Shown one piece after another: positions 3,474 to 37,220 of a stretch of 54,087 nucleotides of DNA. The notes under the pieces were generated by a model. That model was not told where the DNA came from. It searched no databases and saw only the letters and a program-made list of their open reading frames with translations. Origin of the DNA: an uncultured Bifidobacteriaceae bacterium (GTDB taxonomy: Bacteria; Actinomycetota; Acidimicrobiia; IMCC26256; JAENVU01); contig CAZJBJ010000001.1 in the NCBI GenBank assembly GCA_964544295.1, positions 1-54,087 on the forward strand, written 5' to 3'. Both the position numbers and the translations under genes were made by a program. Positions within the stretch are counted from its first letter, which is position 1. Every line of letters starts with the position of its first letter.

Positions 3474-4307
3474 ATGGACCTCGATCCGAAGACCTGGTGG
3501 TACGTCACGCGCGCGAGCGGCTTCGTCGCCTGGGTGCTGTTGGCCGTCGCCGTCCTCTGGGGACTGTTCCTCACGAACAAGACGCTGCAGAAGAGCACCG
3601 CGCCGGCGTGGGTGCTGGACCTCCATCGCCACCTCGGCGGGTTGGCCGTCGTCTTCGTCGCCGTCCACGTCGGGGCGTTGCCGCTCGACGGGTACACCCA
3701 CTGGGGGTGGAGCGACCTGTTCGTCCCGATGTCGACCAGGTGGCACCCGCTCGCCGTCGCCTGGGGGATCGTGGGCCTCTACCTGCTGGTCGCCATCGAG
3801 GTCACGTCGCTCCTCGGTCGCCGCTTCCCCAAGAAGTGGTGGCGACGGGTCCACATGTTGTCGTTCCCGTTGTACGTCCTCGCGTCGATCCACCTCTTCG
3901 CAGCCGGCACCGACAGCGCCAACCGGGCCGTCCAGGCGATGGTGCTGATCGTGTCGACGCTGATCGTGTTCCTCGCCGGCGTCCGTGGCCTCGCGGTGGC
4001 CAAGCCGCGCGAGACCCGGTCGAACCCACGGGTCGCGGCCGCCAAGGCCCGCGCCACCGAAGCACCGGTCGCCTCGGTCACCGCGAGCACCGGTGATCTC
4101 CTCCCGGTCTCGGCCCCGCCGGCGGCGGTGAAGGCCGAGCAGGCCGCGAGTCAGACTCCATCAACGAGCCCGGTCGCCCACGGCCAGCTCTCGATGCAAC
4201 CACCGTCCCTCGAAGCCCGGGTGGCGAAGCTCCGGGCCGGCGCGCGTGCCGCCCGCGAACGGGTCCGCGATCAGTCGCCCAGCCCGGTCGGCTCGGGCCC
4301 GCCCTGA
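3474..4307 (+). CDS. Ferric-reductase-like (MsrQ/YedZ-type) di-heme transmembrane protein
   Basis: ATG 3474 lies inside track ORF 3120..4307. Multiple TM helices carry paired histidines in the ferric-reductase arrangement (HRHLGGLAVVFVAVH; RRVHMLSFPLYVLASIH). Ala-rich tail. Confidence 0.75.
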   Translation: MDLDPKTWWYVTRASGFVAWVLLAVAVLWGLFLTNKTLQKSTAPAWVLDLHRHLGGLAVVFVAVHVGALPLDGYTHWGWSDLFVPMSTRWHPLAVAWGIVGLYLLVAIEVTSLLGRRFPKKWWRRVHMLSFPLYVLASIHLFAAGTDSANRAVQAMVLIVSTLIVFLAGVRGLAVAKPRETRSNPRVAAAKARATEAPVASVTASTGDLLPVSAPPAAVKAEQAASQTPSTSPVAHGQLSMQPPSLEARVAKLRAGARAARERVRDQSPSPVGSGPP

Positions 4308-4325: not shown

Positions 4326-5468
4326 TCAGGCGATCGCGCCGGCCGCCCGTCGGGCCGCGACGACGTCGTCGGCGAAACCCCAGTCCCGCAGCACCTCGTC
4401 GGTGTGCTGCCCGGGCCACGCGGGCGGCCGCTGGATCGCTCCCGGGGTACGACTGAACCGCGGCGCGGGCGCCGGCTGCAACAGACCGTCGCGCTCGACG
4501 ATGGTTTCGCGAGCCTGGATGTGCGGATGCTCGGCGGCCTCGTCCATGGTGAGCACCGGCGCGAAGCACACGTCGGTCATCTCCATGATCTCGCACCACT
4601 CGTCGCGGGTCTTGGCGAGAAACAGCGCGGTGAAGCGCTCGCGCAGGTCGGGCCAGGTCGTCTGGTCCATCTGTCCCGCGAGTTCGACGTCGTCGCTCAA
4701 CCCGGCCAGCCTGATCAACTCCGCGTAGAACTGCGGCTCGAGCGAACCGAGCGAGATGTACTTCCCGTCGGCGGTCTCGTAGGTGTCGTAGAACGGCGCG
4801 CCGGTATCGAGCAGGTTGGTACCGGCCGGACCCCAGAACCCGAGGGCACGGAATCCCCACATCATCGCCATGAGCGCGGCCGCGCCGTCGACCATCGCCG
4901 CGTCGATCACCTGACCCTGACCGCTCCGCCCGGCTTCGACGAGCGCGCACGCCACGCCGAAGGCCATGAGCATCCCCCCGCCGCCGAAGTCGCCGACGAG
5001 GTTGATCGGCGGGGTCGGCTTCTCCCCGACGCGACCGAAGTGGCCGAGCGCGCCCGCGAGCGCGATGTAGTTGATGTCGTGCCCTGCCGCCGGCGCGTAC
5101 GGGCCGTCCTGGCCCCACCCGGTCATCCGGCCGTAGACCAGCTTCGGGTTGCGGGCGAGGCACGCGTCCGGTCCGATACCGAGCCGATCGGCGACCCCCG
5201 GACGGAAGCCCTCGATGAGGGCGTCGGCCTGTTCGACGAGCTGGAGCACCGTCTCGACCCCGTCGGGGTGTTTCAGGTCGACGCCCACCGACCGGCGGCC
5301 GCGGTTGAGGATCTCGAGATTCTGCCGGTCGAAGTTGCCGGTCACGGTCTGGGCCCGATCGACGCGGATCACGTCGGCGCCCAGGTCGGCCAGCATCATC
5401 GCCGCGAACGGCCCCGGCCCGATTCCGGCGATCTCGACGATCTTGATTCCCGACAACGGACCCGACAC
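4326..5468 (-). CDS. Family III CoA-transferase (CaiB/BaiF; alpha-methylacyl-CoA racemase-like)
   Basis: GTG 5468 is preceded by GAGGAG. The N-terminus LSGIKIVEIAGIGPGPFAAMMLADLGADVIRVDR is typical of the family. 380 aa. The upstream extension in the track ORF is Arg/Pro-rich and rejected. Confidence 0.85.
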   Translation of the reverse strand: MSGPLSGIKIVEIAGIGPGPFAAMMLADLGADVIRVDRAQTVTGNFDRQNLEILNRGRRSVGVDLKHPDGVETVLQLVEQADALIEGFRPGVADRLGIGPDACLARNPKLVYGRMTGWGQDGPYAPAAGHDINYIALAGALGHFGRVGEKPTPPINLVGDFGGGGMLMAFGVACALVEAGRSGQGQVIDAAMVDGAAALMAMMWGFRALGFWGPAGTNLLDTGAPFYDTYETADGKYISLGSLEPQFYAELIRLAGLSDDVELAGQMDQTTWPDLRERFTALFLAKTRDEWCEIMEMTDVCFAPVLTMDEAAEHPHIQARETIVERDGLLQPAPAPRFSRTPGAIQRPPAWPGQHTDEVLRDWGFADDVVAARRAAGAIA

Positions 5469-5538: not shown

Positions 5539-6465
5539 TCAGAACTCCAGGGCCAGCCCGGGGCGCGGCCAGGGCAGGGAGACGATCTTGCCGGTGCCCG
5601 AACAGGTCGCGTAGGCGGTCGCGAGGTCGGGGCCACCGAAGCAGACGTTGGTCACGAGCAGATCGGGCAGCGGGATGTGCTCCACCCCGTTGATGCCCGA
5701 GCCGTCCGCGTCGGGCGAGATCACGGTGAGCCCACCGTTGAAGATGGTCCCGACCACGACGTTGCCGGCACTGTCGACCCCGAGCGAATCCAGGAGTTGC
5801 ATGCCGGGGAGACCCGCGAGCAGCGTGCCGCCGTTGCCCACCGGGCCACCCGCGGCGAGCACGCCCGGCGACTCGATCGGCCACCAGAACACCCGTCCCG
5901 TGTGAGTCTCCGCGACGTAGAGGCGGTCACCGCCGGGCGAGAGCCCGATGCCGTTCGGCGAATCCAGGGGGAAGATCACCTCCCGGATCTCGGAGCCGTC
6001 CGCGGCCGCGTAGTACACCGCGCCGATGGTGTGTACCCGGCCCCGCTGCTTGCCGTGGTCGGTGAACCACATGCCACCCGCGGCGTCGAACACGAGGTCG
6101 TTGGGACCGACCAGCTCGTTGCCGTCGCACTCGGTGTAGAGGACGGTGACCTGACCGGTGTCGAGATCGACGCGCTCGATGCGACCGCCCGTGTAGTCGC
6201 CGGGTTGACGCACGTCGGGCACGGTCATGCCCATGACCTCCGAGAAGCCCCAACCTCCGCTGTTGCAGACGTAGGCCGCGCCATCGGGCCCGATGGCGAG
6301 CCCGTTCGGGCTCCCACCCGGCGTCGCCACCGTTTCGACCCGTCCGTCGAGGTGCACCCGAACGACGGTGCGACCCTTGAGCTCCACGCACAGCAGCGTC
6401 CCGTCGGGCATCCAGACCGGACCCTCCGGGAACTGCAATCCGGTCGCGATCTCCGTGATCTCCAT
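5539..6465 (-). CDS. SMP-30/gluconolactonase/LRE family protein
   Basis: ATG 6465 (MEITEI). Propeller lactonase blocks: FPEGPVW, SPNGLAIGPDG, GPNDLVFD, SPNGIGLSP and NVCFGG. Confidence 0.85.
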   Translation of the reverse strand: MEITEIATGLQFPEGPVWMPDGTLLCVELKGRTVVRVHLDGRVETVATPGGSPNGLAIGPDGAAYVCNSGGWGFSEVMGMTVPDVRQPGDYTGGRIERVDLDTGQVTVLYTECDGNELVGPNDLVFDAAGGMWFTDHGKQRGRVHTIGAVYYAAADGSEIREVIFPLDSPNGIGLSPGGDRLYVAETHTGRVFWWPIESPGVLAAGGPVGNGGTLLAGLPGMQLLDSLGVDSAGNVVVGTIFNGGLTVISPDADGSGINGVEHIPLPDLLVTNVCFGGPDLATAYATCSGTGKIVSLPWPRPGLALEF

Positions 6466-33412: not shown

Positions 33413-34216
33413 ATGCAACTCGACAGTGCCCACGTGGTCCTCACCGGAGCGAGCCGCGGTATCGGTCGCGAACTCGTCCACGTCCTCGCCGACCGCGGCG
33501 CGCGGCTGGCGCTCGTCGCCCGCGACGCCGACGCGCTGGACGCGCTCGTCGGCGCCATCGGTGAGACGCGCGCGGCCGCATACCCCTGCGATCTCGGTGA
33601 CCCGACGGCGATCGACGGTCTGATCGCTCGCATCGAGGCCGACCGAGGCGCGGTGGACGTGCTCGTCAACAACGCCGGGCTCGACCACACCGGCTCGTTC
33701 ACGGCCATGACGGCCGCGCAACTTCGCGCCGTGGTGGGTGTGAACCTCATCGCCACCGCGGAGCTCTGTCGGCAGATCCTGCCGGGCATGACCGGGCGCA
33801 GTCGCGGGCACGTCGTCAACGTGTCGAGCATCGGCGGATCACTCCCGAGCGCGGGCGTCATCGCCTACTGCGCGACGAAGGCGGGGGTGAACCAGTTCAC
33901 CGCCGGTCTGCGCGCCGAACTCAAGCACACCGGGGTCGGGACCACGCTCGTGGAGGTCGGCCCGGTCGCCACCGAGATGATGGATCACCTGCGGGAGTAC
34001 GCGCCGACGGCGAACGGCGTGCGTCGGCTCGAACGCCTCGGCCTCTCCCGGGACCTCGACCCGCACGTCGTCGCGGTGGCCATGGCCGATGCGATCGCGT
34101 CCGACCGGCCCCACCTGCGGATGCCGAAACGTCAGGCCCCGATCTCGGCCATCGCCGAACTCCCCCGCCGCATCGGCTCCCTGATCACCCTCGGCCTCAC
34201 AACCTCCGCGAGCTAG
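33413..34216 (+). CDS. Short-chain dehydrogenase/reductase (SDR)
   Basis: TGASRGIGRE, NNAG and catalytic YCATKAG (Y-x3-K). Confidence 0.9.
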   Translation: MQLDSAHVVLTGASRGIGRELVHVLADRGARLALVARDADALDALVGAIGETRAAAYPCDLGDPTAIDGLIARIEADRGAVDVLVNNAGLDHTGSFTAMTAAQLRAVVGVNLIATAELCRQILPGMTGRSRGHVVNVSSIGGSLPSAGVIAYCATKAGVNQFTAGLRAELKHTGVGTTLVEVGPVATEMMDHLREYAPTANGVRRLERLGLSRDLDPHVVAVAMADAIASDRPHLRMPKRQAPISAIAELPRRIGSLITLGLTTSAS

Positions 34217-35250
34217 CGCTTGTCAGCCTTCAGGCCCTCGATCACCGCGGCCCAGCGTTCGCGATCGGCTTCGTAGGGGGCGTAGAACGAGAGCCGGTCG
34301 ACGATGTCGCCGTAGCGCGCCGAGAGTTCGGCGGCGATCGACTCGGGCGCACCGACCACGGCGAACGTCTCGAGGATTTCGTCGTCGATGAGCTCGCCCA
34401 TCTCGACCCACTTCCCCTGCTTCGAGAGCGCGTTGAGGTCGGTCTGGAGATCACCCCAGCCGTGCAGTTCCAGCACGCCCCGGTACGCGGGGGTCGATCC
34501 GTAGAACGCGATCTGCTGCTTGGTTCCCGCGCGAGCCTTCTCCATCTGCTCGTCGTTCGTCCCGGTGACGACGAAGAGCGGCCCGGAGAGCTGGAAGTCG
34601 GCCCGGGTCTTGCCAGCCTTCTCCCAGCCGCGGGCGAGCGCCGGGAGGGTCACCTCGCGGACGTACCGCTCAGTGGTGAAACCGTGCAGGATGATGCCGT
34701 CGCACACCTCGCCCGCGACCTCGGTCATCTTCTCGCCGACCGCCGCGAGGAACACCTTCGGCGGGCCCCACTCGATCGGACCCGGGTTGAAGAACGGCGT
34801 CATCAGGGTGTGGCGGTAGAACTCGCCCTCGAACTGCAGCGGCGTCCCGTCCTGCCAGTTGGCCCAGATCGCCCGCATCGCCAGCACCAGCTCGCGCATG
34901 CGCGCCGCGGGCGACGACCACGGCATCGAGAACCGCTTCTCGATGTGCGGCTTGATCTGGCTGCCCAACCCGAGAATGAACCGGCCACCGGAATAGCCCT
35001 GCAGATCCCACGCGGTGTTGGCGAGCGTCATCGGGCTGCGGGCGAACGCCACCGCGATCCCGGTGCCCAACTCGATGCGCTCGGTGTGTTCGGCCGCGAT
35101 CAGTAGCGGATAGAACGGGTCGTGGTTGGTCTCGGCCGACCAGATCCCGTCGTAGCCGAGTTCCTCCTGTGCTCGGGCCGCCGACCCGATCCCTGCCAGA
35201 CCCTGTGCCCCACTCGCCGAGATCGAACCGATCCCCCCATCGACCTTCAT
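34213..35250 (-). CDS. LLM class F420-dependent oxidoreductase
   Basis: ATG 35250 with a GAAGGAGG RBS. GYDGIWSAETNHDPF, LGTGIAVAFARSP and GRFILGLGSQ. Confidence 0.88.
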   Translation of the reverse strand: MKVDGGIGSISASGAQGLAGIGSAARAQEELGYDGIWSAETNHDPFYPLLIAAEHTERIELGTGIAVAFARSPMTLANTAWDLQGYSGGRFILGLGSQIKPHIEKRFSMPWSSPAARMRELVLAMRAIWANWQDGTPLQFEGEFYRHTLMTPFFNPGPIEWGPPKVFLAAVGEKMTEVAGEVCDGIILHGFTTERYVREVTLPALARGWEKAGKTRADFQLSGPLFVVTGTNDEQMEKARAGTKQQIAFYGSTPAYRGVLELHGWGDLQTDLNALSKQGKWVEMGELIDDEILETFAVVGAPESIAAELSARYGDIVDRLSFYAPYEADRERWAAVIEGLKADKR

Positions 35251-35289
35251 ACGTCCTCCTTCAGACCGGCCGGAGGTTATCGACCACGC

Positions 35290-35332
35290 CTTCATGGTGT
35301 GGGTTCGCACCGAAACGGTGAGATCTCACCCC
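35290..35332 (+). repeat. 43-bp direct repeat, left copy (contains palindrome GGTGAGATCTCACC)
   Basis: CTTCATGGTGTGGGTTCGCACCGAAACGGTGAGATCTCACCCC recurs at 36273-36315 with one mismatch. Confidence 0.9.
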
Positions 35333-35368
35333 ATGAAGCAACACCGCGTGTCACACCCCGCGAGTTGG

Positions 35369-36304
35369 ATGGTCGATATGTCCACTTCTCCGGTCACTCA
35401 GCTCGAGCGCTTCGCGGCGCAGCGGTACGGCGTCTTCACCGCGACCGAGGCCGAGGCTCACCACGTCAGCCGCCGGATGATCTCGGCCCGCCTGGACAAC
35501 GGCCGGTGGCAGCGCGTGCTCCCGAACGTCTACCGGGTCAGCGCGGTGCCGGTCAGCTTCCGGCAGCGGTGCCTGGCCGCGACGCTCTGGGCGGGTGGCC
35601 GTCTGTCCCACGTCTGCGCCGGACGGTTGTGGCAGTTCGAAGGGATCGTCACCCAGGCACTCCACCTGACGGTCGGTCGCAACCGAGGTCTGAGCCACGC
35701 CGATGTGATCGTCCACCGGACCGACGACCTGATCGATGCCGACCTCGCGACCATGCACCGCATTGCCGTGACCTCTCCGCTGCGCACCGTGCTCGACCTC
35801 GCGGCGACAACCCCGGCTCCGGCGCTCGAGGTGGCCATCGAAGATGCGTTGCGCCGCCAGCTCTTCACCGTCGGCCAACTGCGATGGCGGGCGGATGCAC
35901 GACTCGGCACCGGCGTCGCGGGATCAGCACGGATCCGTCGACTTCTCGATCGACGCTTGGGCGACACCGACAGTGGGTGGGAGGTCCGGGTCGCCCGCGC
36001 CCTGACCGACGGCGGATTGCCGGAACCGGTCCGCCAGTACGAGGTCCGCACCATGGACGGGCCTCGCTGGGTGGATCTCGCGTATCCGGGCCATCCGCCT
36101 GTCGTCATCGAGTACGACAGCGATCGGTGGCACACCGGCGTCGCCCGTCGCCATCGCGACGCGGCTCGTCGGAACGCGTTGCGGCTCGCCGGCGCCACGG
36201 TGGTCGAGGTCACGCCTGATCTCGCCGGGGACCCCCGACGGTTGGTGAGCCTGGTGCGGACCGCGCTCGATGCTTCATGGTGTGAGTTCGCACCGAAACG
36301 GTGA
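35369..36304 (+). CDS. AbiEi-like wHTH / DUF559 (Vsr-like endonuclease domain) protein
   Basis: N-terminal GVFTATEAEAHHVSRRMISARLDNGRWQRVLPNVYR. C-terminal VDLAYPGHPPVVIEYDSDRWH..RRNALRLAGATVVEV. Start is ATG 35369 or 35378. The last ~10 codons lie in the right repeat. Confidence 0.8.
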   Translation: MVDMSTSPVTQLERFAAQRYGVFTATEAEAHHVSRRMISARLDNGRWQRVLPNVYRVSAVPVSFRQRCLAATLWAGGRLSHVCAGRLWQFEGIVTQALHLTVGRNRGLSHADVIVHRTDDLIDADLATMHRIAVTSPLRTVLDLAATTPAPALEVAIEDALRRQLFTVGQLRWRADARLGTGVAGSARIRRLLDRRLGDTDSGWEVRVARALTDGGLPEPVRQYEVRTMDGPRWVDLAYPGHPPVVIEYDSDRWHTGVARRHRDAARRNALRLAGATVVEVTPDLAGDPRRLVSLVRTALDASWCEFAPKR

Positions 36305-36315
36305 GATCTCACCCC
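36273..36315 (+). repeat. 43-bp direct repeat, right copy
   Basis: CTTCATGGTGTGAGTTCGCACCGAAACGGTGAGATCTCACCCC has one G>A difference from the left copy. Confidence 0.9.
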
Positions 36316-36374
36316 GAGCAGGGCCGGCGACGGTCATCCCGGCGGTGGTCACACCTCCCCGGTACCCTGGCCCC

Positions 36375-37220
36375 ATGGGAGTAGGAAAGCCGCGAGGGTT
36401 GTCACCGTCGTCGTTCTCGGCGTTCAAGGACTGTCCGCTCGCGTTCCGTTTCTCCTACCTGGATCGGCTCCCCCAACCGCCCTCGGCGGCCGCGAGCAAG
36501 GGCACGCTGGTCCACCGGGCGCTCGAGCTGCTCATGCTGCGCGACGGGCCGGACCGCACCACCGCCAACGCGCTCACCGATCTCGCCCGGGCCCGCACCG
36601 AACTCGCCCTCCATCCCGATTTCGCCGATCTCGAGCTCACCGACGACGAGTGGGACCGGTTCCACGAGGACGCCGAGGTTCTCGTCCACAAGTACTTCGA
36701 GCTCGAGGACCCGACCACGATCGTGCCGATCGGGCTCGAACTCCGGCTCGCCGCCACGATCGGCACGGTACAGCTGCGCGGCATCATCGACCGGCTCGAA
36801 CTCGATCCCGACGGTGAGCTCGTCATCACCGATTACAAGACCGGCTCCGTCCCCGGCGAGAAGTACGAGATCAAGCGACTGGCCGGGGTGCACATGTACG
36901 CGGCGATGGTCGAGCACGTGCTCGGCAAGCGCCCGGTCCGGGTGCAGCTGCTGTATCTGTCCAAGCCCGAGGCGATCATCACCACTCCGTCGGACCAGTC
37001 GATCACCGGCGTGATGCGCAAGACCGACGCCTTGTGGTCGGCGATCGGCCGCGCCTGCGAGCGCGACGACTTCCGTCCGAGTATCGGGCCGTTGTGCAAC
37101 TGGTGCGCGTACAAGCCGTACTGCCCCGCGTACGGGGGCGATCCGCTCCAGGCCGCCGAACTCCTCGGCCCCGGCCAGATGATCGAGCCTTCGCTCCCGT
37201 TGGCCACCTCGTCGGCCTAG
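36375..37220 (+). CDS. PD-(D/E)XK nuclease, RecB/Cas4-like with Cys cluster
   Basis: KDCPLAFRFSYL, nuclease core GIIDRLE..LVITDYKTG and C-terminal CNWCAYKPYC. Four Cys in the Cas4-like pattern. Confidence 0.85.
   Translation: MGVGKPRGLSPSSFSAFKDCPLAFRFSYLDRLPQPPSAAASKGTLVHRALELLMLRDGPDRTTANALTDLARARTELALHPDFADLELTDDEWDRFHEDAEVLVHKYFELEDPTTIVPIGLELRLAATIGTVQLRGIIDRLELDPDGELVITDYKTGSVPGEKYEIKRLAGVHMYAAMVEHVLGKRPVRVQLLYLSKPEAIITTPSDQSITGVMRKTDALWSAIGRACERDDFRPSIGPLCNWCAYKPYCPAYGGDPLQAAELLGPGQMIEPSLPLATSSA

What the first reader, a model, noticed from the sequence alone, without database searches (positions are those of the whole stretch)
35290..36315. One AbiEi/DUF559 gene exactly bracketed by 43-bp direct repeats carrying a perfect 14-bp palindrome
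R1 (35290-35332), CTTCATGGTGTGGGTTCGCACCGAAACGGTGAGATCTCACCCC, recurs at 36273-36315 with a single G>A change. Each copy contains the perfect palindrome GGTGAGATCTCACC. R1 plus the next 6 nt also closes an 8-bp outer stem (CTTCATGG/CCATGAAG). The 983-bp repeat unit holds exactly one gene, and that gene takes its last ~10 codons and its stop from R2. Deleting one unit would leave an ordinary ~141-nt divergent spacer between the F420 oxidoreductase gene and the RecB/Cas4-like nuclease gene. This is the footprint expected of a site-specific single-gene insertion (attL/attR-like, or a long target duplication). Yet no transposase, integrase or recombinase is present; the only candidate catalyst is the cassette's own Vsr-like DUF559 endonuclease domain. 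DUF559/AbiEi genes are typically multi-copy in actinobacterial genomes, and to my knowledge no mobility mechanism is established for them. An alternative reading is that the palindrome is a shared operator, lying ~37 nt and ~60 nt upstream of two nuclease-type genes.
Basis: partly seen in the sequence, partly recalled or inferred. Interest (0 to 1): 0.75.

Follow-up and report, generated by a model that had tools for sequence, protein, structure and literature searches.

The report
Nuclease gene flanked by operator-like palindromes
A gene for a DNA-binding nuclease sits between two near-identical copies of a 49-bp palindrome shaped like the known AbiEi repressor binding site; relatives of this gene in many bacteria are flanked the same way, which suggests the protein acts on both sides of its own gene rather than marking a fresh insertion.

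Summary
A 43-nt direct repeat (42/43 identical) brackets one AbiEi-wHTH + Vsr/DUF559 nuclease gene, and the gene's stop codon lies in the second copy.

Each copy is most of a 49-bp imperfect palindrome: two 23-bp arms separated by 3 bp. That is the published geometry of the AbiEi operator.

The gene is not a recent arrival. Eight other Acidimicrobiia MAG or assembly loci carry it at the same luciferase|PD-(D/E)XK spacer, and its divergence tracks that of the flanking genes. Twelve relatives lack it. The three closest have no repeat copy at all, and two others keep a single palindrome.

So the repeat is not a target-site duplication. Its 98% identity reflects recent homogenisation.

In a wider sample, 32 of 44 homologous loci from at least 12 lineages are flanked by cognate repeats, direct or inverted. 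No transposase, target duplication, extra copies or plasmid copies were found.

Best reading: the repeats are paired binding sites of the gene's own product. Each lies just upstream of a RecA-NDp-like promoter, one for this gene and one for the neighbouring nuclease gene. A self-acting, mobile-like cassette remains possible but unproven.

The parts
35290..35338 (.). Upstream palindrome (R1 plus 6 nt): CTTCATGGTGTGGGTTCGCACCG-AAA-CGGTGAGATCTCACCCCATGAAG. It has two 23-bp arms and a 3-bp spacer. The first 43 nt are the direct repeat.
   Evidence: 19/23 complementary pairs against a shuffle maximum of 14. The geometry equals that of the AbiEi operator.
35349..35370 (+). RecA-NDp-like promoter of the nuclease gene: TGTCACAC, 8 nt, TTGGAT, then 7 nt to the ATG. 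This implies a leaderless mRNA.
   Evidence: the motif occurs only twice in the window against 0.14 expected. It is conserved upstream of homologues, including those at other loci. The consensus is given in PMC5656591.
35378..36304 (+). Gene for the AbiEi-like DNA-binding module (residues about 7-176) fused to a Vsr/DUF559-type nuclease domain (residues about 230-306). The gene caller started it at 35333.
   Evidence: Pfam AbiEi_4 4.4e-10. PADLOC AbiEi 1e-29. AlphaFold2 pLDDT 86.8. Foldseek hits 6Y8Q (AbiEi), 1ZEL, 3R3P and 3HRL. The D...ExD...H residues are invariant in 19 homologues. dN/dS is 0.22-0.29.
36273..36321 (.). Downstream palindrome (R2). It has the same 43 nt plus GAGCAG, overlaps the last 10 codons and the stop codon of the gene, and ends 25 nt upstream of the promoter box of the next gene.
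   Evidence: 17/23 pairs; 45/49 identical to R1, at most 30/49 to any copy in other genomes.
36347..36368 (+). RecA-NDp-like promoter of the PD-(D/E)XK nuclease gene: GGTCACAC, 8 nt, TACCCT, then 6 nt to the ATG.
   Evidence: Conserved in all orthologous loci, including outgroups without the cassette.
36375..37220 (+). Resident PD-(D/E)XK (RecB/Cas4-like) nuclease gene. It is the right-hand flank and a possible second target of the palindrome.
   Evidence: Pfam PDDEXK_1 2.2e-34. 84-95% identical orthologues in 20 MAG loci.
34213..35250 (-). Luciferase-like (F420-type) oxidoreductase gene, the left-hand flank, divergently oriented. R1 lies 40-88 nt upstream of its start.
   Evidence: Pfam Bac_luciferase 1e-68. 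Syntenic in all relatives.

Best explanation
The 43-nt repeat is the main part of a 49-bp palindrome made of two 23-bp arms separated by 3 bp. This is the architecture that AbiEi-family winged-helix proteins are known to bind, as two monomers, in their own promoters.

The gene between the copies encodes such an AbiEi-like module fused to a Vsr/DUF559 nuclease domain. I therefore read both copies as binding sites for the gene's own product.

Site 1 ends 10 nt upstream of the gene's own DNA-damage-type (RecA-NDp-like), leaderless promoter, and most likely mediates autoregulation. Site 2 overlaps the 3' end of the gene and ends 25 nt upstream of the same type of promoter, which drives the adjacent PD-(D/E)XK nuclease gene. 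It may couple that gene to the regulator, or pair with site 1 (for example by DNA looping) to shut the nuclease gene down tightly.

The unit site-gene-site is an old accessory cassette at this locus. It is inherited vertically, evolves fast, and is often degraded or deleted. The near-identity of the two copies in this genome comes from recent homogenisation, meaning gene conversion between the copies, and not from a recent insertion.

Shown here: the anatomy, the homology, the synteny, the presence/absence pattern, the family-wide recurrence of flanking repeats, and the identity between copies.

Inferred, not shown: that the protein binds the sites, the regulatory outcome, looping, and gene conversion as the cause of the identity.
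For: 1. Geometry. The arms are 23-3-23 with 19/23 and 17/23 complementary pairs. S. agalactiae AbiEi binds two 23-bp inverted repeats separated by 3 bp in its own promoter, and Rv2827c binds four such repeats (PMC7319586).

2. Protein. Pfam AbiEi_4. PADLOC AbiEi models cover residues 7-176 at E = 1e-29. The best structural matches of the model are AbiEi 6Y8Q (E = 3e-7) and Rv2827c 1ZEL.

3. Position. The motif GTCRCAC-N8-TWNNNT occurs only twice in 54 kb. Each occurrence lies just downstream of one palindrome and just upstream of one nuclease gene.

4. Restriction to this gene. The four 23-nt arms are the only matches in the window.

5. Site and gene travel together and co-vary. Orthologues in L001, L002/L009 and L010 are flanked by their own versions, which share the core CACC(G/A)AAACGGTG.

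6. Family-wide recurrence. In the sample, 32 of 44 loci have flanking repeats scoring at least 40. None of 64 displaced controls reach that score, and control genes score at most 27. Both orientations occur. Some loci carry arrays of 22-29-nt units, which is about the size of one AbiEi repeat.

7. Palindrome mismatches. G.T 21, A.C 17 and other 56: there is no wobble bias on the sense strand. This fits a double-stranded protein-binding site better than an RNA hairpin.

8. Age. The DUF559 tree agrees with the tree of the flanking genes. The divergence ratio is about 3-4.5, and dS of the gene is close to dS of its neighbour for L002/L010.

9. Homogenisation. R1 and R2 share the same left-arm versus right-arm asymmetries and are 45/49 identical. 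dS to the closest relative is 0.64.
Against: - Binding was not tested.
- The palindromes lie 10-64 nt upstream of the putative promoter box in the four clade-2 genomes, rather than over the -35/-10 region as in the abiE promoter.
- In several lineages the downstream copy lies between convergent genes, where there is no promoter to regulate. Examples are L032, L042 and the inverted-repeat lineage. A classical operator role therefore cannot explain the second copy in general.
- Selection for binding alone does not predict 42/43 identity, so an extra process (conversion) has to be assumed.
- The Vsr-like domain keeps its catalytic residues and is under purifying selection. The protein is therefore probably more than a repressor.
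Confidence: 0.5

Rival explanations
1. Self-acting cassette. The palindromes are the ends of a selfish single-gene element. The encoded protein binds them through its AbiEi module and nicks or cuts there with its Vsr-like domain. This would drive excision, replacement or copying of the cassette at this site, and would incidentally homogenise the two ends. Known analogues are a homing endonuclease gene, or a REP-associated transposase gene flanked by its REPs.
For: - The unit that is present or absent includes both palindromes. The indel boundaries between the window and L003/L004 fall within a few nt of the outer edges of R1 and R2.
- Solo palindromes remain in L013 and L017.
- The nuclease domain resembles the catalytic domain of the Vsr-like homing endonuclease I-Bth0305I (3R3P, probability 0.99). 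That enzyme is a homodimer with a ~60-bp footprint on a pseudopalindromic target.
- The catalytic motif is invariant.
- In about 20 loci the flanks are 57-100-nt terminal inverted repeats, each occurring exactly once per side.
- The two ends are homogenised.
- Between L014 and L015 the block from R1 to R2 is about 72% identical while the flanks are about 92%. dS is 0.885 against 0.43 for the neighbour, as if a cassette allele had been swapped.
- The gene shows the invade-decay-loss pattern: frameshifts in L001 and L011, a remnant in L016, and at least five losses.
Against: - No case of two contexts for one cassette type was found. P0058 sits in the same neighbourhood on all six contigs.
- There are no target-site duplications outside the inverted repeats.
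- The 90%-identity protein clusters sit on one to six contigs, not on many.
- No full-length homologue occurs on PLSDB plasmids.
- The gene tree agrees with the host tree.
- The sites are intact on both sides of the gene. A homing endonuclease normally disrupts its own target.
Confidence: 0.2
2. A recent site-specific insertion of a single-gene cassette either duplicated a 43-bp target or recombined a cassette-borne site with an identical chromosomal site (attL/attR).
For: - The two copies are direct, nearly identical repeats that bracket exactly one gene.
- The empty sites L013 and L017 hold a single palindrome.
- The window's flanks are closest to empty-site genomes right up to the cassette.
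Against: - The three closest empty sites, and all outgroups, contain no copy of the repeat.
- The gene is as diverged from its orthologues as the flanking genes predict. The insertion is therefore old while the repeat identity is young.
- No recombinase is present.
- Inverted flanking repeats occur in most other lineages.
Confidence: 0.07
3. The palindromes act as RNA or single-stranded DNA hairpins. They would serve as terminators, insulators or stabilisers around a potentially toxic nuclease gene, and the similarity of the two copies would come from duplication.
For: - R1 folds at -28.7 kcal/mol (z = -4.75) and R2 at -24.1 kcal/mol.
- R2 overlaps the stop codon.
- In the inverted-repeat lineage both copies sit directly after the stop codons of neighbouring genes.
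- Stems are kept by different sequences in L001 R1 and R2.
Against: - There is no T-run and no terminator-like hit, and no Rfam family.
- R1 lies between divergent genes, upstream of the putative leaderless promoter.
- Mismatches show no G.U preference on the sense strand.
- The non-palindromic parts of the repeats are conserved on both sides as well.
Confidence: 0.08

Closest known systems
AbiEi / Rv2827c antitoxin-repressors of type IV AbiE toxin-antitoxin systems and their operators
   Same: The winged-helix N-terminal domain and the following domain are shared (Pfam, PADLOC and fold matches to 6Y8Q and 1ZEL). The cognate site is built from 23-bp inverted repeats separated by 3 bp and sits next to the gene's own promoter.
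   Different: There is no AbiEii nucleotidyltransferase partner. Instead a Vsr/DUF559 nuclease domain is fused to the C-terminus. The site occurs twice, on both sides of the gene, and lies upstream of the promoter rather than over it.
RAYT genes flanked by their REP/REPIN palindromes (from my own knowledge: Nunvar 2010; Bertels and Rainey 2011)
   Same: Both are single-copy, vertically inherited genes for a DNA-cutting enzyme, flanked on both sides by copies of the palindrome the enzyme is thought to recognise.
   Different: RAYTs are HUH/Y1 transposases, and their palindromes are dispersed in tens to hundreds of copies. Here no extra copy occurs in 54 kb, and the enzyme has a restriction-endonuclease-like fold.
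I-Bth0305I and the EDxHD / Vsr-like homing endonucleases (PMC3239194; PMC2677866)
   Same: Both have a Vsr-like catalytic fold joined to a separate DNA-binding region and a long pseudopalindromic target. The gene shows presence/absence polymorphism at a fixed site and frequent decay.
   Different: Those homing genes lie in introns or inteins, or split their target. Here the putative target is intact on both sides, the DNA-binding module is AbiEi-like, and horizontal spread has not been shown.
Recombination-site-bounded modules without their own recombinase (integron cassettes with attC; Acinetobacter pdif modules) and IS200/IS605-type elements with hairpin ends
   Same: In each case one gene is bounded by imperfect palindromes whose structure is better conserved than their sequence, and no recombinase lies inside the unit.
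   Different: There is no IntI, Xer-type site (11-6-11) or TnpA. The attC R'/R'' consensus is absent, there are no arrays, and no second location is known.
RecA-NDp / PafBC-dependent DNA-damage promoters of Actinobacteria (tTGTCRgtg-8 nt-TannnT; PMC5656591)
   Same: Both nuclease genes carry TGTCR, an 8-nt spacer and a TAnnnT-like hexamer 6-7 nt before the ATG.
   Different: The three bases after TGTCR are CAC, not GTG. The -10 hexamer of the DUF559 gene is TTGGAT in this genome. PafBC dependence is untested in Acidimicrobiia.

Membership tests
AbiEi family (DNA-binding antitoxin/repressor) | N-terminal AbiEi-type winged helix plus second domain | tested here: met
   Pfam AbiEi_4 39.9 bits against a cut-off of 25. 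PADLOC AbiEi E = 1e-29 over residues 7-176. Foldseek 6Y8Q E = 2.9e-7 and 1ZEL.
AbiEi family (DNA-binding antitoxin/repressor) | Adjacent AbiEii (DUF1814 nucleotidyltransferase) toxin gene | tested here: not met
   The neighbours are a luciferase-like gene and a PD-(D/E)XK gene. No nucleotidyltransferase was found in the genes scanned between 18.8 and 52.9 kb.
AbiEi family (DNA-binding antitoxin/repressor) | Cognate operator of 23-bp inverted repeats (3-bp gap) near its own promoter, bound by the protein | tested here: inconclusive
   The geometry is met (23-3-23) and the site ends 10 nt upstream of the promoter box. Binding cannot be tested with these tools.
DUF559 / Vsr-like (REase_MTES_1575) nucleases | Vsr-type restriction-endonuclease fold with conserved acidic and His residues | tested here: met
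   Pfam PF18741 scores only 17.2 bits against a cut-off of 38.2 for this protein, but many homologues carry PF18741 or PF04480. Fold matches to 3R3P and 3HRL have TM about 0.63. D248, E260, D262 and H267 are conserved. Activity is untested.
Transposable element with target-site duplication | The empty site holds one copy of the duplicated sequence | tested here: not met
   L003-L008, L012 and L018-L020 have no copy. Only L013 and L017 keep one palindrome.
Transposable element with target-site duplication | Transposase or recombinase gene, and several copies or contexts | tested here: not met
   There are no such domains. The gene sits at one locus per lineage and P0058 has the same context on six contigs. 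No target duplications lie outside the inverted repeats. Whole genomes could not be scanned.
Integron gene cassette (attC) | IntI integrase, attI, and attC with RYYYAAC/GTTRRRY core sites | tested here: not met
   No integrase is present. No GTTRRRY core is found in the repeat (read).
REP/RAYT system | Palindrome dispersed at many intergenic sites, and a Y1 HUH transposase | tested here: not met
   Only the four arms occur in 54 kb. The 24-mer is absent from 185,579 species genomes. The enzyme fold is different. The rest of this genome is not available.
Homing endonuclease gene | The nuclease cuts the empty allele, and insertion destroys the target | tested here: inconclusive
   Presence/absence at a fixed site and the fold similarity are met. 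The palindromes are intact on both sides, empty sites lack them, and cleavage is untestable here.
Intrinsic terminator | GC-rich hairpin followed by a T-run at a 3' end | tested here: not met
   No terminator-like site occurs in 35150-36500. R1 is not at a 3' end.

The most novel reading that the evidence does not exclude
AbiEi-Vsr/DUF559 genes form a very large uncharacterised family: 11,835 clusters at 50% identity with E <= 1e-3. On this reading they are self-contained nuclease cassettes bounded by arrays of their own recognition sites. The protein would cut or nick those sites to drive conversion, exchange or excision of its own gene. That would be a new kind of selfish or self-editing element, combining the logic of homing endonucleases with that of REP-associated transposases.
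Probability: 0.17. Interest if true: 0.85.

Novelty: new variant of a known kind. Interest (0 to 1): 0.55.

Why it matters
AbiEi repressors and their 23-bp repeats are known only from two-gene toxin-antitoxin operons. The AbiEi-nuclease fusions are far more numerous, and I found no experimental study of them in the library I searched.

If the paired palindromes are the fusion protein's own sites, three things follow:
- Every member of this large family comes with a readable candidate recognition sequence.
- The family offers a testable model of how a potentially dangerous nuclease gene is kept silent and induced after DNA damage.
- It gives a natural case of concerted evolution of cis sites together with a fast-evolving DNA-binding protein.

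If instead the nuclease acts on the sites, the family would be a new class of site-specific selfish cassettes, and a source of long-target nucleases.

Tried and rejected
- tRNA or tmRNA as an attachment site: none in the window.
- Known RNA families: none.
- Sigma-70 promoter or terminator consensus near the repeats: none.
- Exact 24-mer of the repeat in 185,579 species genomes: no hit, so the window's own genome and close strains are not in that collection.
- Own-contig look-up for the window protein: not on record.
- REP-like dispersal: no further 23-nt units in the window with up to 5 mismatches, beyond two chance-level hits. Counts at 6 mismatches (14) sit just above the shuffled range of 3-12.
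- Plasmid-borne copies: no full-length homologue in PLSDB, only AbiEi N-terminal matches on Thermus and Deinococcus plasmids.
- Multi-context copies: P0058, the cluster seen on most contigs, is always in the same neighbourhood.
- Target-site duplications outside the inverted repeats: none seen.
- Imported flanks: the window's flanks stay closest to the empty-site genomes L003/L004 right up to the cassette.
- Exact insertion point: I tried by eye to decide whether the window and the L001/L002 lineages share the same point in the spacer. The spacer is short, GC-rich and too diverged (dS 0.6-1.1), so I treat this as unresolved.
- The CTTCA/CACCCC ends of the repeat abut as CTTCACCCC in L003. This could be a scar of palindrome loss or could be chance. 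It is not relied on.
- Ungapped 23-N-23 palindrome scoring is insensitive where the arms carry indels (L002, L011, L014), so geometry is claimed only for the loci that passed.
- PDB sequence-profile search: no hit. The fold search was needed.
Full report
**1. What is in the sequence**

The 43-nt repeat is real. R1 lies at 35290-35332 and R2 at 36273-36315. They are 42/43 identical and 983 nt apart.

Its inner 14-bp palindrome and a 28-mer from it occur nowhere else in the 54-kb window.

The ORF between the copies carries an AbiEi_4 winged helix and a weak REase_MTES_1575 (Vsr/DUF559-type) match. Its flanks are a divergent luciferase-like oxidoreductase gene and a co-directional PD-(D/E)XK nuclease gene.

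The ORF runs into R2 and stops there. Homologues end with unrelated tails, so the last ten codons are an accident of where the repeat lies.

Folding showed that the repeat is not two small hairpins. It is one long imperfect palindrome centred on CACCG-AAA-CGGTG. Counted out, it is 23 nt + 3 nt + 23 nt, with 19/23 complementary pairs in R1 and 17/23 in R2. The single G>A difference turns a G.T position into an A-T pair.

**2. What the protein is**

PADLOC's AbiEi models match residues 7-176 at E = 1e-29.

An AlphaFold2 model has a mean pLDDT of 86.8. Its best PDB matches are the AbiEi antitoxin of S. agalactiae (6Y8Q, E = 2.9e-7) and Rv2827c (1ZEL). The C-terminal domain resembles three structures: the catalytic domain of the Vsr-like homing endonuclease I-Bth0305I (3R3P), the DUF559 protein NGO0050 (3HRL) and, more weakly, the R2 and TnsA nucleases.

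The acidic and histidine residues of the nuclease motif (VDLAY...IEYDSDRWH) are invariant or nearly so in 19 homologues. dN/dS is 0.22-0.29, so the gene is functional but evolves fast.

The family is very large. It has 11,835 clusters at 50% identity with E <= 1e-3 and 4,342 with E <= 1e-10. Most of the best hits are full-length, about 310 aa.

I found no paper on these fusions in the library I searched.

**3. The link to known biology**

Beck et al. 2020 (PMC7319586) state that S. agalactiae AbiEi binds two 23-bp inverted repeats separated by 3 bp within its own promoter. They also report that M. tuberculosis Rv2827c binds four 23-bp repeats.

A second motif fits the same picture. GTCRCAC-N8-TWNNNT occurs only twice in the window against 0.14 expected. 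One occurrence starts 10 nt after the end of the R1 palindrome and ends 7 nt before the conserved ATG of the DUF559 gene. The other starts 25 nt after the end of the R2 palindrome and ends 6 nt before the ATG of the PD-(D/E)XK gene.

This motif resembles the actinobacterial RecA-independent DNA-damage promoter tTGTCRgtg-8 nt-TannnT (PMC5656591). It is also present upstream of DUF559 homologues at other loci.

**4. Relatives: occupied and empty sites**

Homologues 60-66% identical to the window protein turned out to lie at the same locus.

A scan of species-representative genomes with the PD-(D/E)XK protein returned about 20 orthologous loci from Acidimicrobiia MAGs.

- Occupied: nine genomes carry the DUF559 gene between the same two flanking genes. 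These are the window, L001, L002, L009, L010, L011, L014 and L015, plus a C-terminal remnant in L016.
- Empty: twelve do not. These include the three closest relatives L003-L005, whose flanking proteins are 94-96% identical to the window's.
- Repeat content of the empty sites: L003-L008, L012 and the outgroups L018-L020 contain no copy of the palindrome. L013 and L017 keep a single palindrome homologous to those flanking the gene in L015 and L011.

So the repeat is not a duplicated target. The unit that is gained or lost contains both copies.

**5. Age of the cassette**

The DUF559 tree has the same topology as the tree of the flanking genes.

The ratio of DUF559 to flank protein divergence is about 3-4.5 for 26 of 28 pairs.

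For L002/L010, dS of the gene (0.25) is similar to that of the neighbour (0.37).

The window's flanks remain closest to the empty-site genomes L003/L004 right up to the cassette.

The simplest history is one old acquisition, followed by vertical descent, fast evolution and repeated decay. The decay includes frameshifts in L001 and L011, an internal deletion in L016 and at least five complete losses.

One exception is L014 versus L015. The block from R1 to R2 is about 72% identical while the flanks are about 92%, and dS is doubled. This could be a swapped cassette allele.

**6. Why the two copies are so alike**

dS between the window and its nearest relative is already 0.64. Two neutral copies as old as the cassette would be unrecognisable by now.

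Yet R1 and R2 are 45/49 identical over the whole palindrome, and at most 30/49 identical to any copy in another genome. They also share the same differences between the left and right arms.

That is the signature of whole-unit homogenisation, meaning gene conversion or re-duplication, and not of selection on contact bases alone.

In L001, L002 and L010 the two copies are also more alike, or as alike, within a genome as between orthologous positions. In the L011/L014/L015 clade they have drifted apart.

**7. A family-wide pattern**

I compared the 260 nt around the start with the 320 nt around the stop for 44 homologous loci. Most came from a metagenome scan and are about 30% identical to the window protein.

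Thirty-two loci have a flanking repeat scoring at least 40. None of 64 controls displaced by 500-800 nt reach that score, and the PD-(D/E)XK control genes score at most 27.

At least 12 independent lineages are involved.

- Direct and strongly palindromic repeats: the window's clade, L039/L042, L043, L052, L077 and L032.
- Inverted repeats: a lineage of about 20 loci has 57-100-nt inverted repeats containing GCGTGTCGG..CCGACACGC. Each occurs exactly once per side. L049 has three tandem 22-nt units on each side, and L095 has about 29-nt units.

Several downstream copies lie between convergent genes. A promoter-operator role cannot explain the second copy in general.

No target duplications flank the inverted repeats. 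No cassette was seen in two contexts. None is on a PLSDB plasmid.

**8. Weighing the explanations**

Binding of the palindromes by the gene's own AbiEi module is the common core of the two leading explanations. I rate that core as likely, about 0.7.

What the binding does is less clear.

- Regulation (0.5). This covers autorepression at R1, and coupling to the neighbouring nuclease gene or looping through R2. It has the direct precedent and fits the promoter positions.
- Self-acting cassette (0.2). This better explains why the sites sit on both sides in either orientation, why the ends are homogenised, why the gain/loss unit includes both sites, and why a catalytically intact nuclease of a fold used by a homing endonuclease is attached. 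Positive evidence of movement is lacking.
- RNA hairpin (0.08). There is no T-run, no wobble bias, and R1 sits upstream of a leaderless promoter between divergent genes.
It is contradicted by the repeat-free empty sites and by the age of the gene.

**9. Verdict**

The mobile-insertion interpretation is only partly right: the unit is a discrete, often-lost cassette, but the repeats are not an insertion footprint.

The best-supported reading is a new architectural variant of a known kind. It is an AbiEi-type DNA-binding protein fused to a nuclease, whose gene is bracketed by two homogenised copies of its operator-like palindrome.

The recurrence of this bracket across a very large, unstudied family is the part most worth following up.

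Noticed in passing
window 35349-35370 and 36347-36368: GTCRCAC-N8-TWNNNT occurs only twice in 54 kb (0.14 expected), directly upstream of the two adjacent nuclease genes and 6-7 nt before their ATGs. It resembles the RecA-NDp/PafBC DNA-damage promoter and implies leaderless mRNAs. The same box precedes DUF559 homologues at unrelated loci (L033, L034).
   Followed up: partly
L032 about 4770-5000 and 5007-5038 / 5921-5952: Two features lie next to a DUF559 homologue at a different locus, between a response regulator gene and rpsA. A roughly 113-bp tandem duplication of the 3' end of the response regulator gene plus spacer lies immediately upstream of the DUF559 start. A 24-32-nt direct repeat sits at the 5' and 3' ends of the DUF559 gene. 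The 3' copy is part of a perfect 14-bp-stem hairpin.
   Followed up: partly
L014 923-1965 versus L015 (aligned region): In two genomes whose flanks are about 92% identical at the nucleotide level, the whole block from R1 to R2 is only about 72% identical. dS is 0.885 against 0.43 for the neighbouring gene. L016 shares the L014 type. This may be replacement of a cassette allele, with boundaries in or next to the palindromes.
   Followed up: partly
L046-L085 (e.g. L054 2831-2906 / 3864-3938; L051 2804-2870 / 3847-3913): About 20 loci of one lineage carry the homologue between 57-100-nt terminal inverted repeats (CCGCGAGCGTGCGTGTCGG..CCGACACGCCGC...). The repeats are packed tightly between the stop codons of the neighbouring genes and are better conserved than the gene itself. 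No target duplications were seen.
   Followed up: partly
L049 1152-1218 / 2234-2300; L095 2784-2870 / 3931-4017: The flanks consist of three tandem units of about 22 nt (L049) or about 29 nt (L095) on each side, with the two sides inverted relative to each other. They look like arrays of binding sites, each unit about the size of one AbiEi repeat.
   Followed up: no
L001 about 1671-1815; L011 about 3685; L016 1193-1411: The gene is decaying in three of the nine occupied genomes. L001 has a frameshift after residue about 270 and L011 has one near residue 254. L016 keeps only the last 73 codons, fused directly to the promoter box. Assembly errors cannot be excluded for the two frameshifts.
   Followed up: partly
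L012 and L033 (both from MAG GCA_031422675.1): The MAG whose luciferase|PD-(D/E)XK spacer is empty carries a 56%-identical homologue at another locus, between amidohydrolase genes and a penicillin-binding-protein gene. That copy has the same promoter box but no flanking repeat pair.
   Followed up: partly
window 35331-35340 and 36271-36280: The stretch between the two palindrome cores begins with CCATGAAGCA and ends with its reverse complement TGCTTCATGG. ATGAAGCA also starts the homologue in L032. It is probably just the outer arm of the palindrome, but it creates the upstream ATG (35333) that the gene caller used.
   Followed up: partly
L003 and L004 spacers (about 3900-3960): The empty sites read ...CGCTTCACCCCGGG... 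(L003) and ...CGCTTCACCACCGGGTGGTGA... (L004). The first 5 nt and the last 6 nt of the window's repeat (CTTCA / CACCCC) abut there. This could be a scar left when a solo palindrome was lost by slippage between TCA repeats, or it could be chance in a GC-rich spacer.
   Followed up: partly
L022 1500-4000: In a more distant genome the same spacer holds a MerR/GyrI-like regulator gene and an SRPBCC (Polyketide_cyc2) gene instead of the nuclease cassette.
   Followed up: yes
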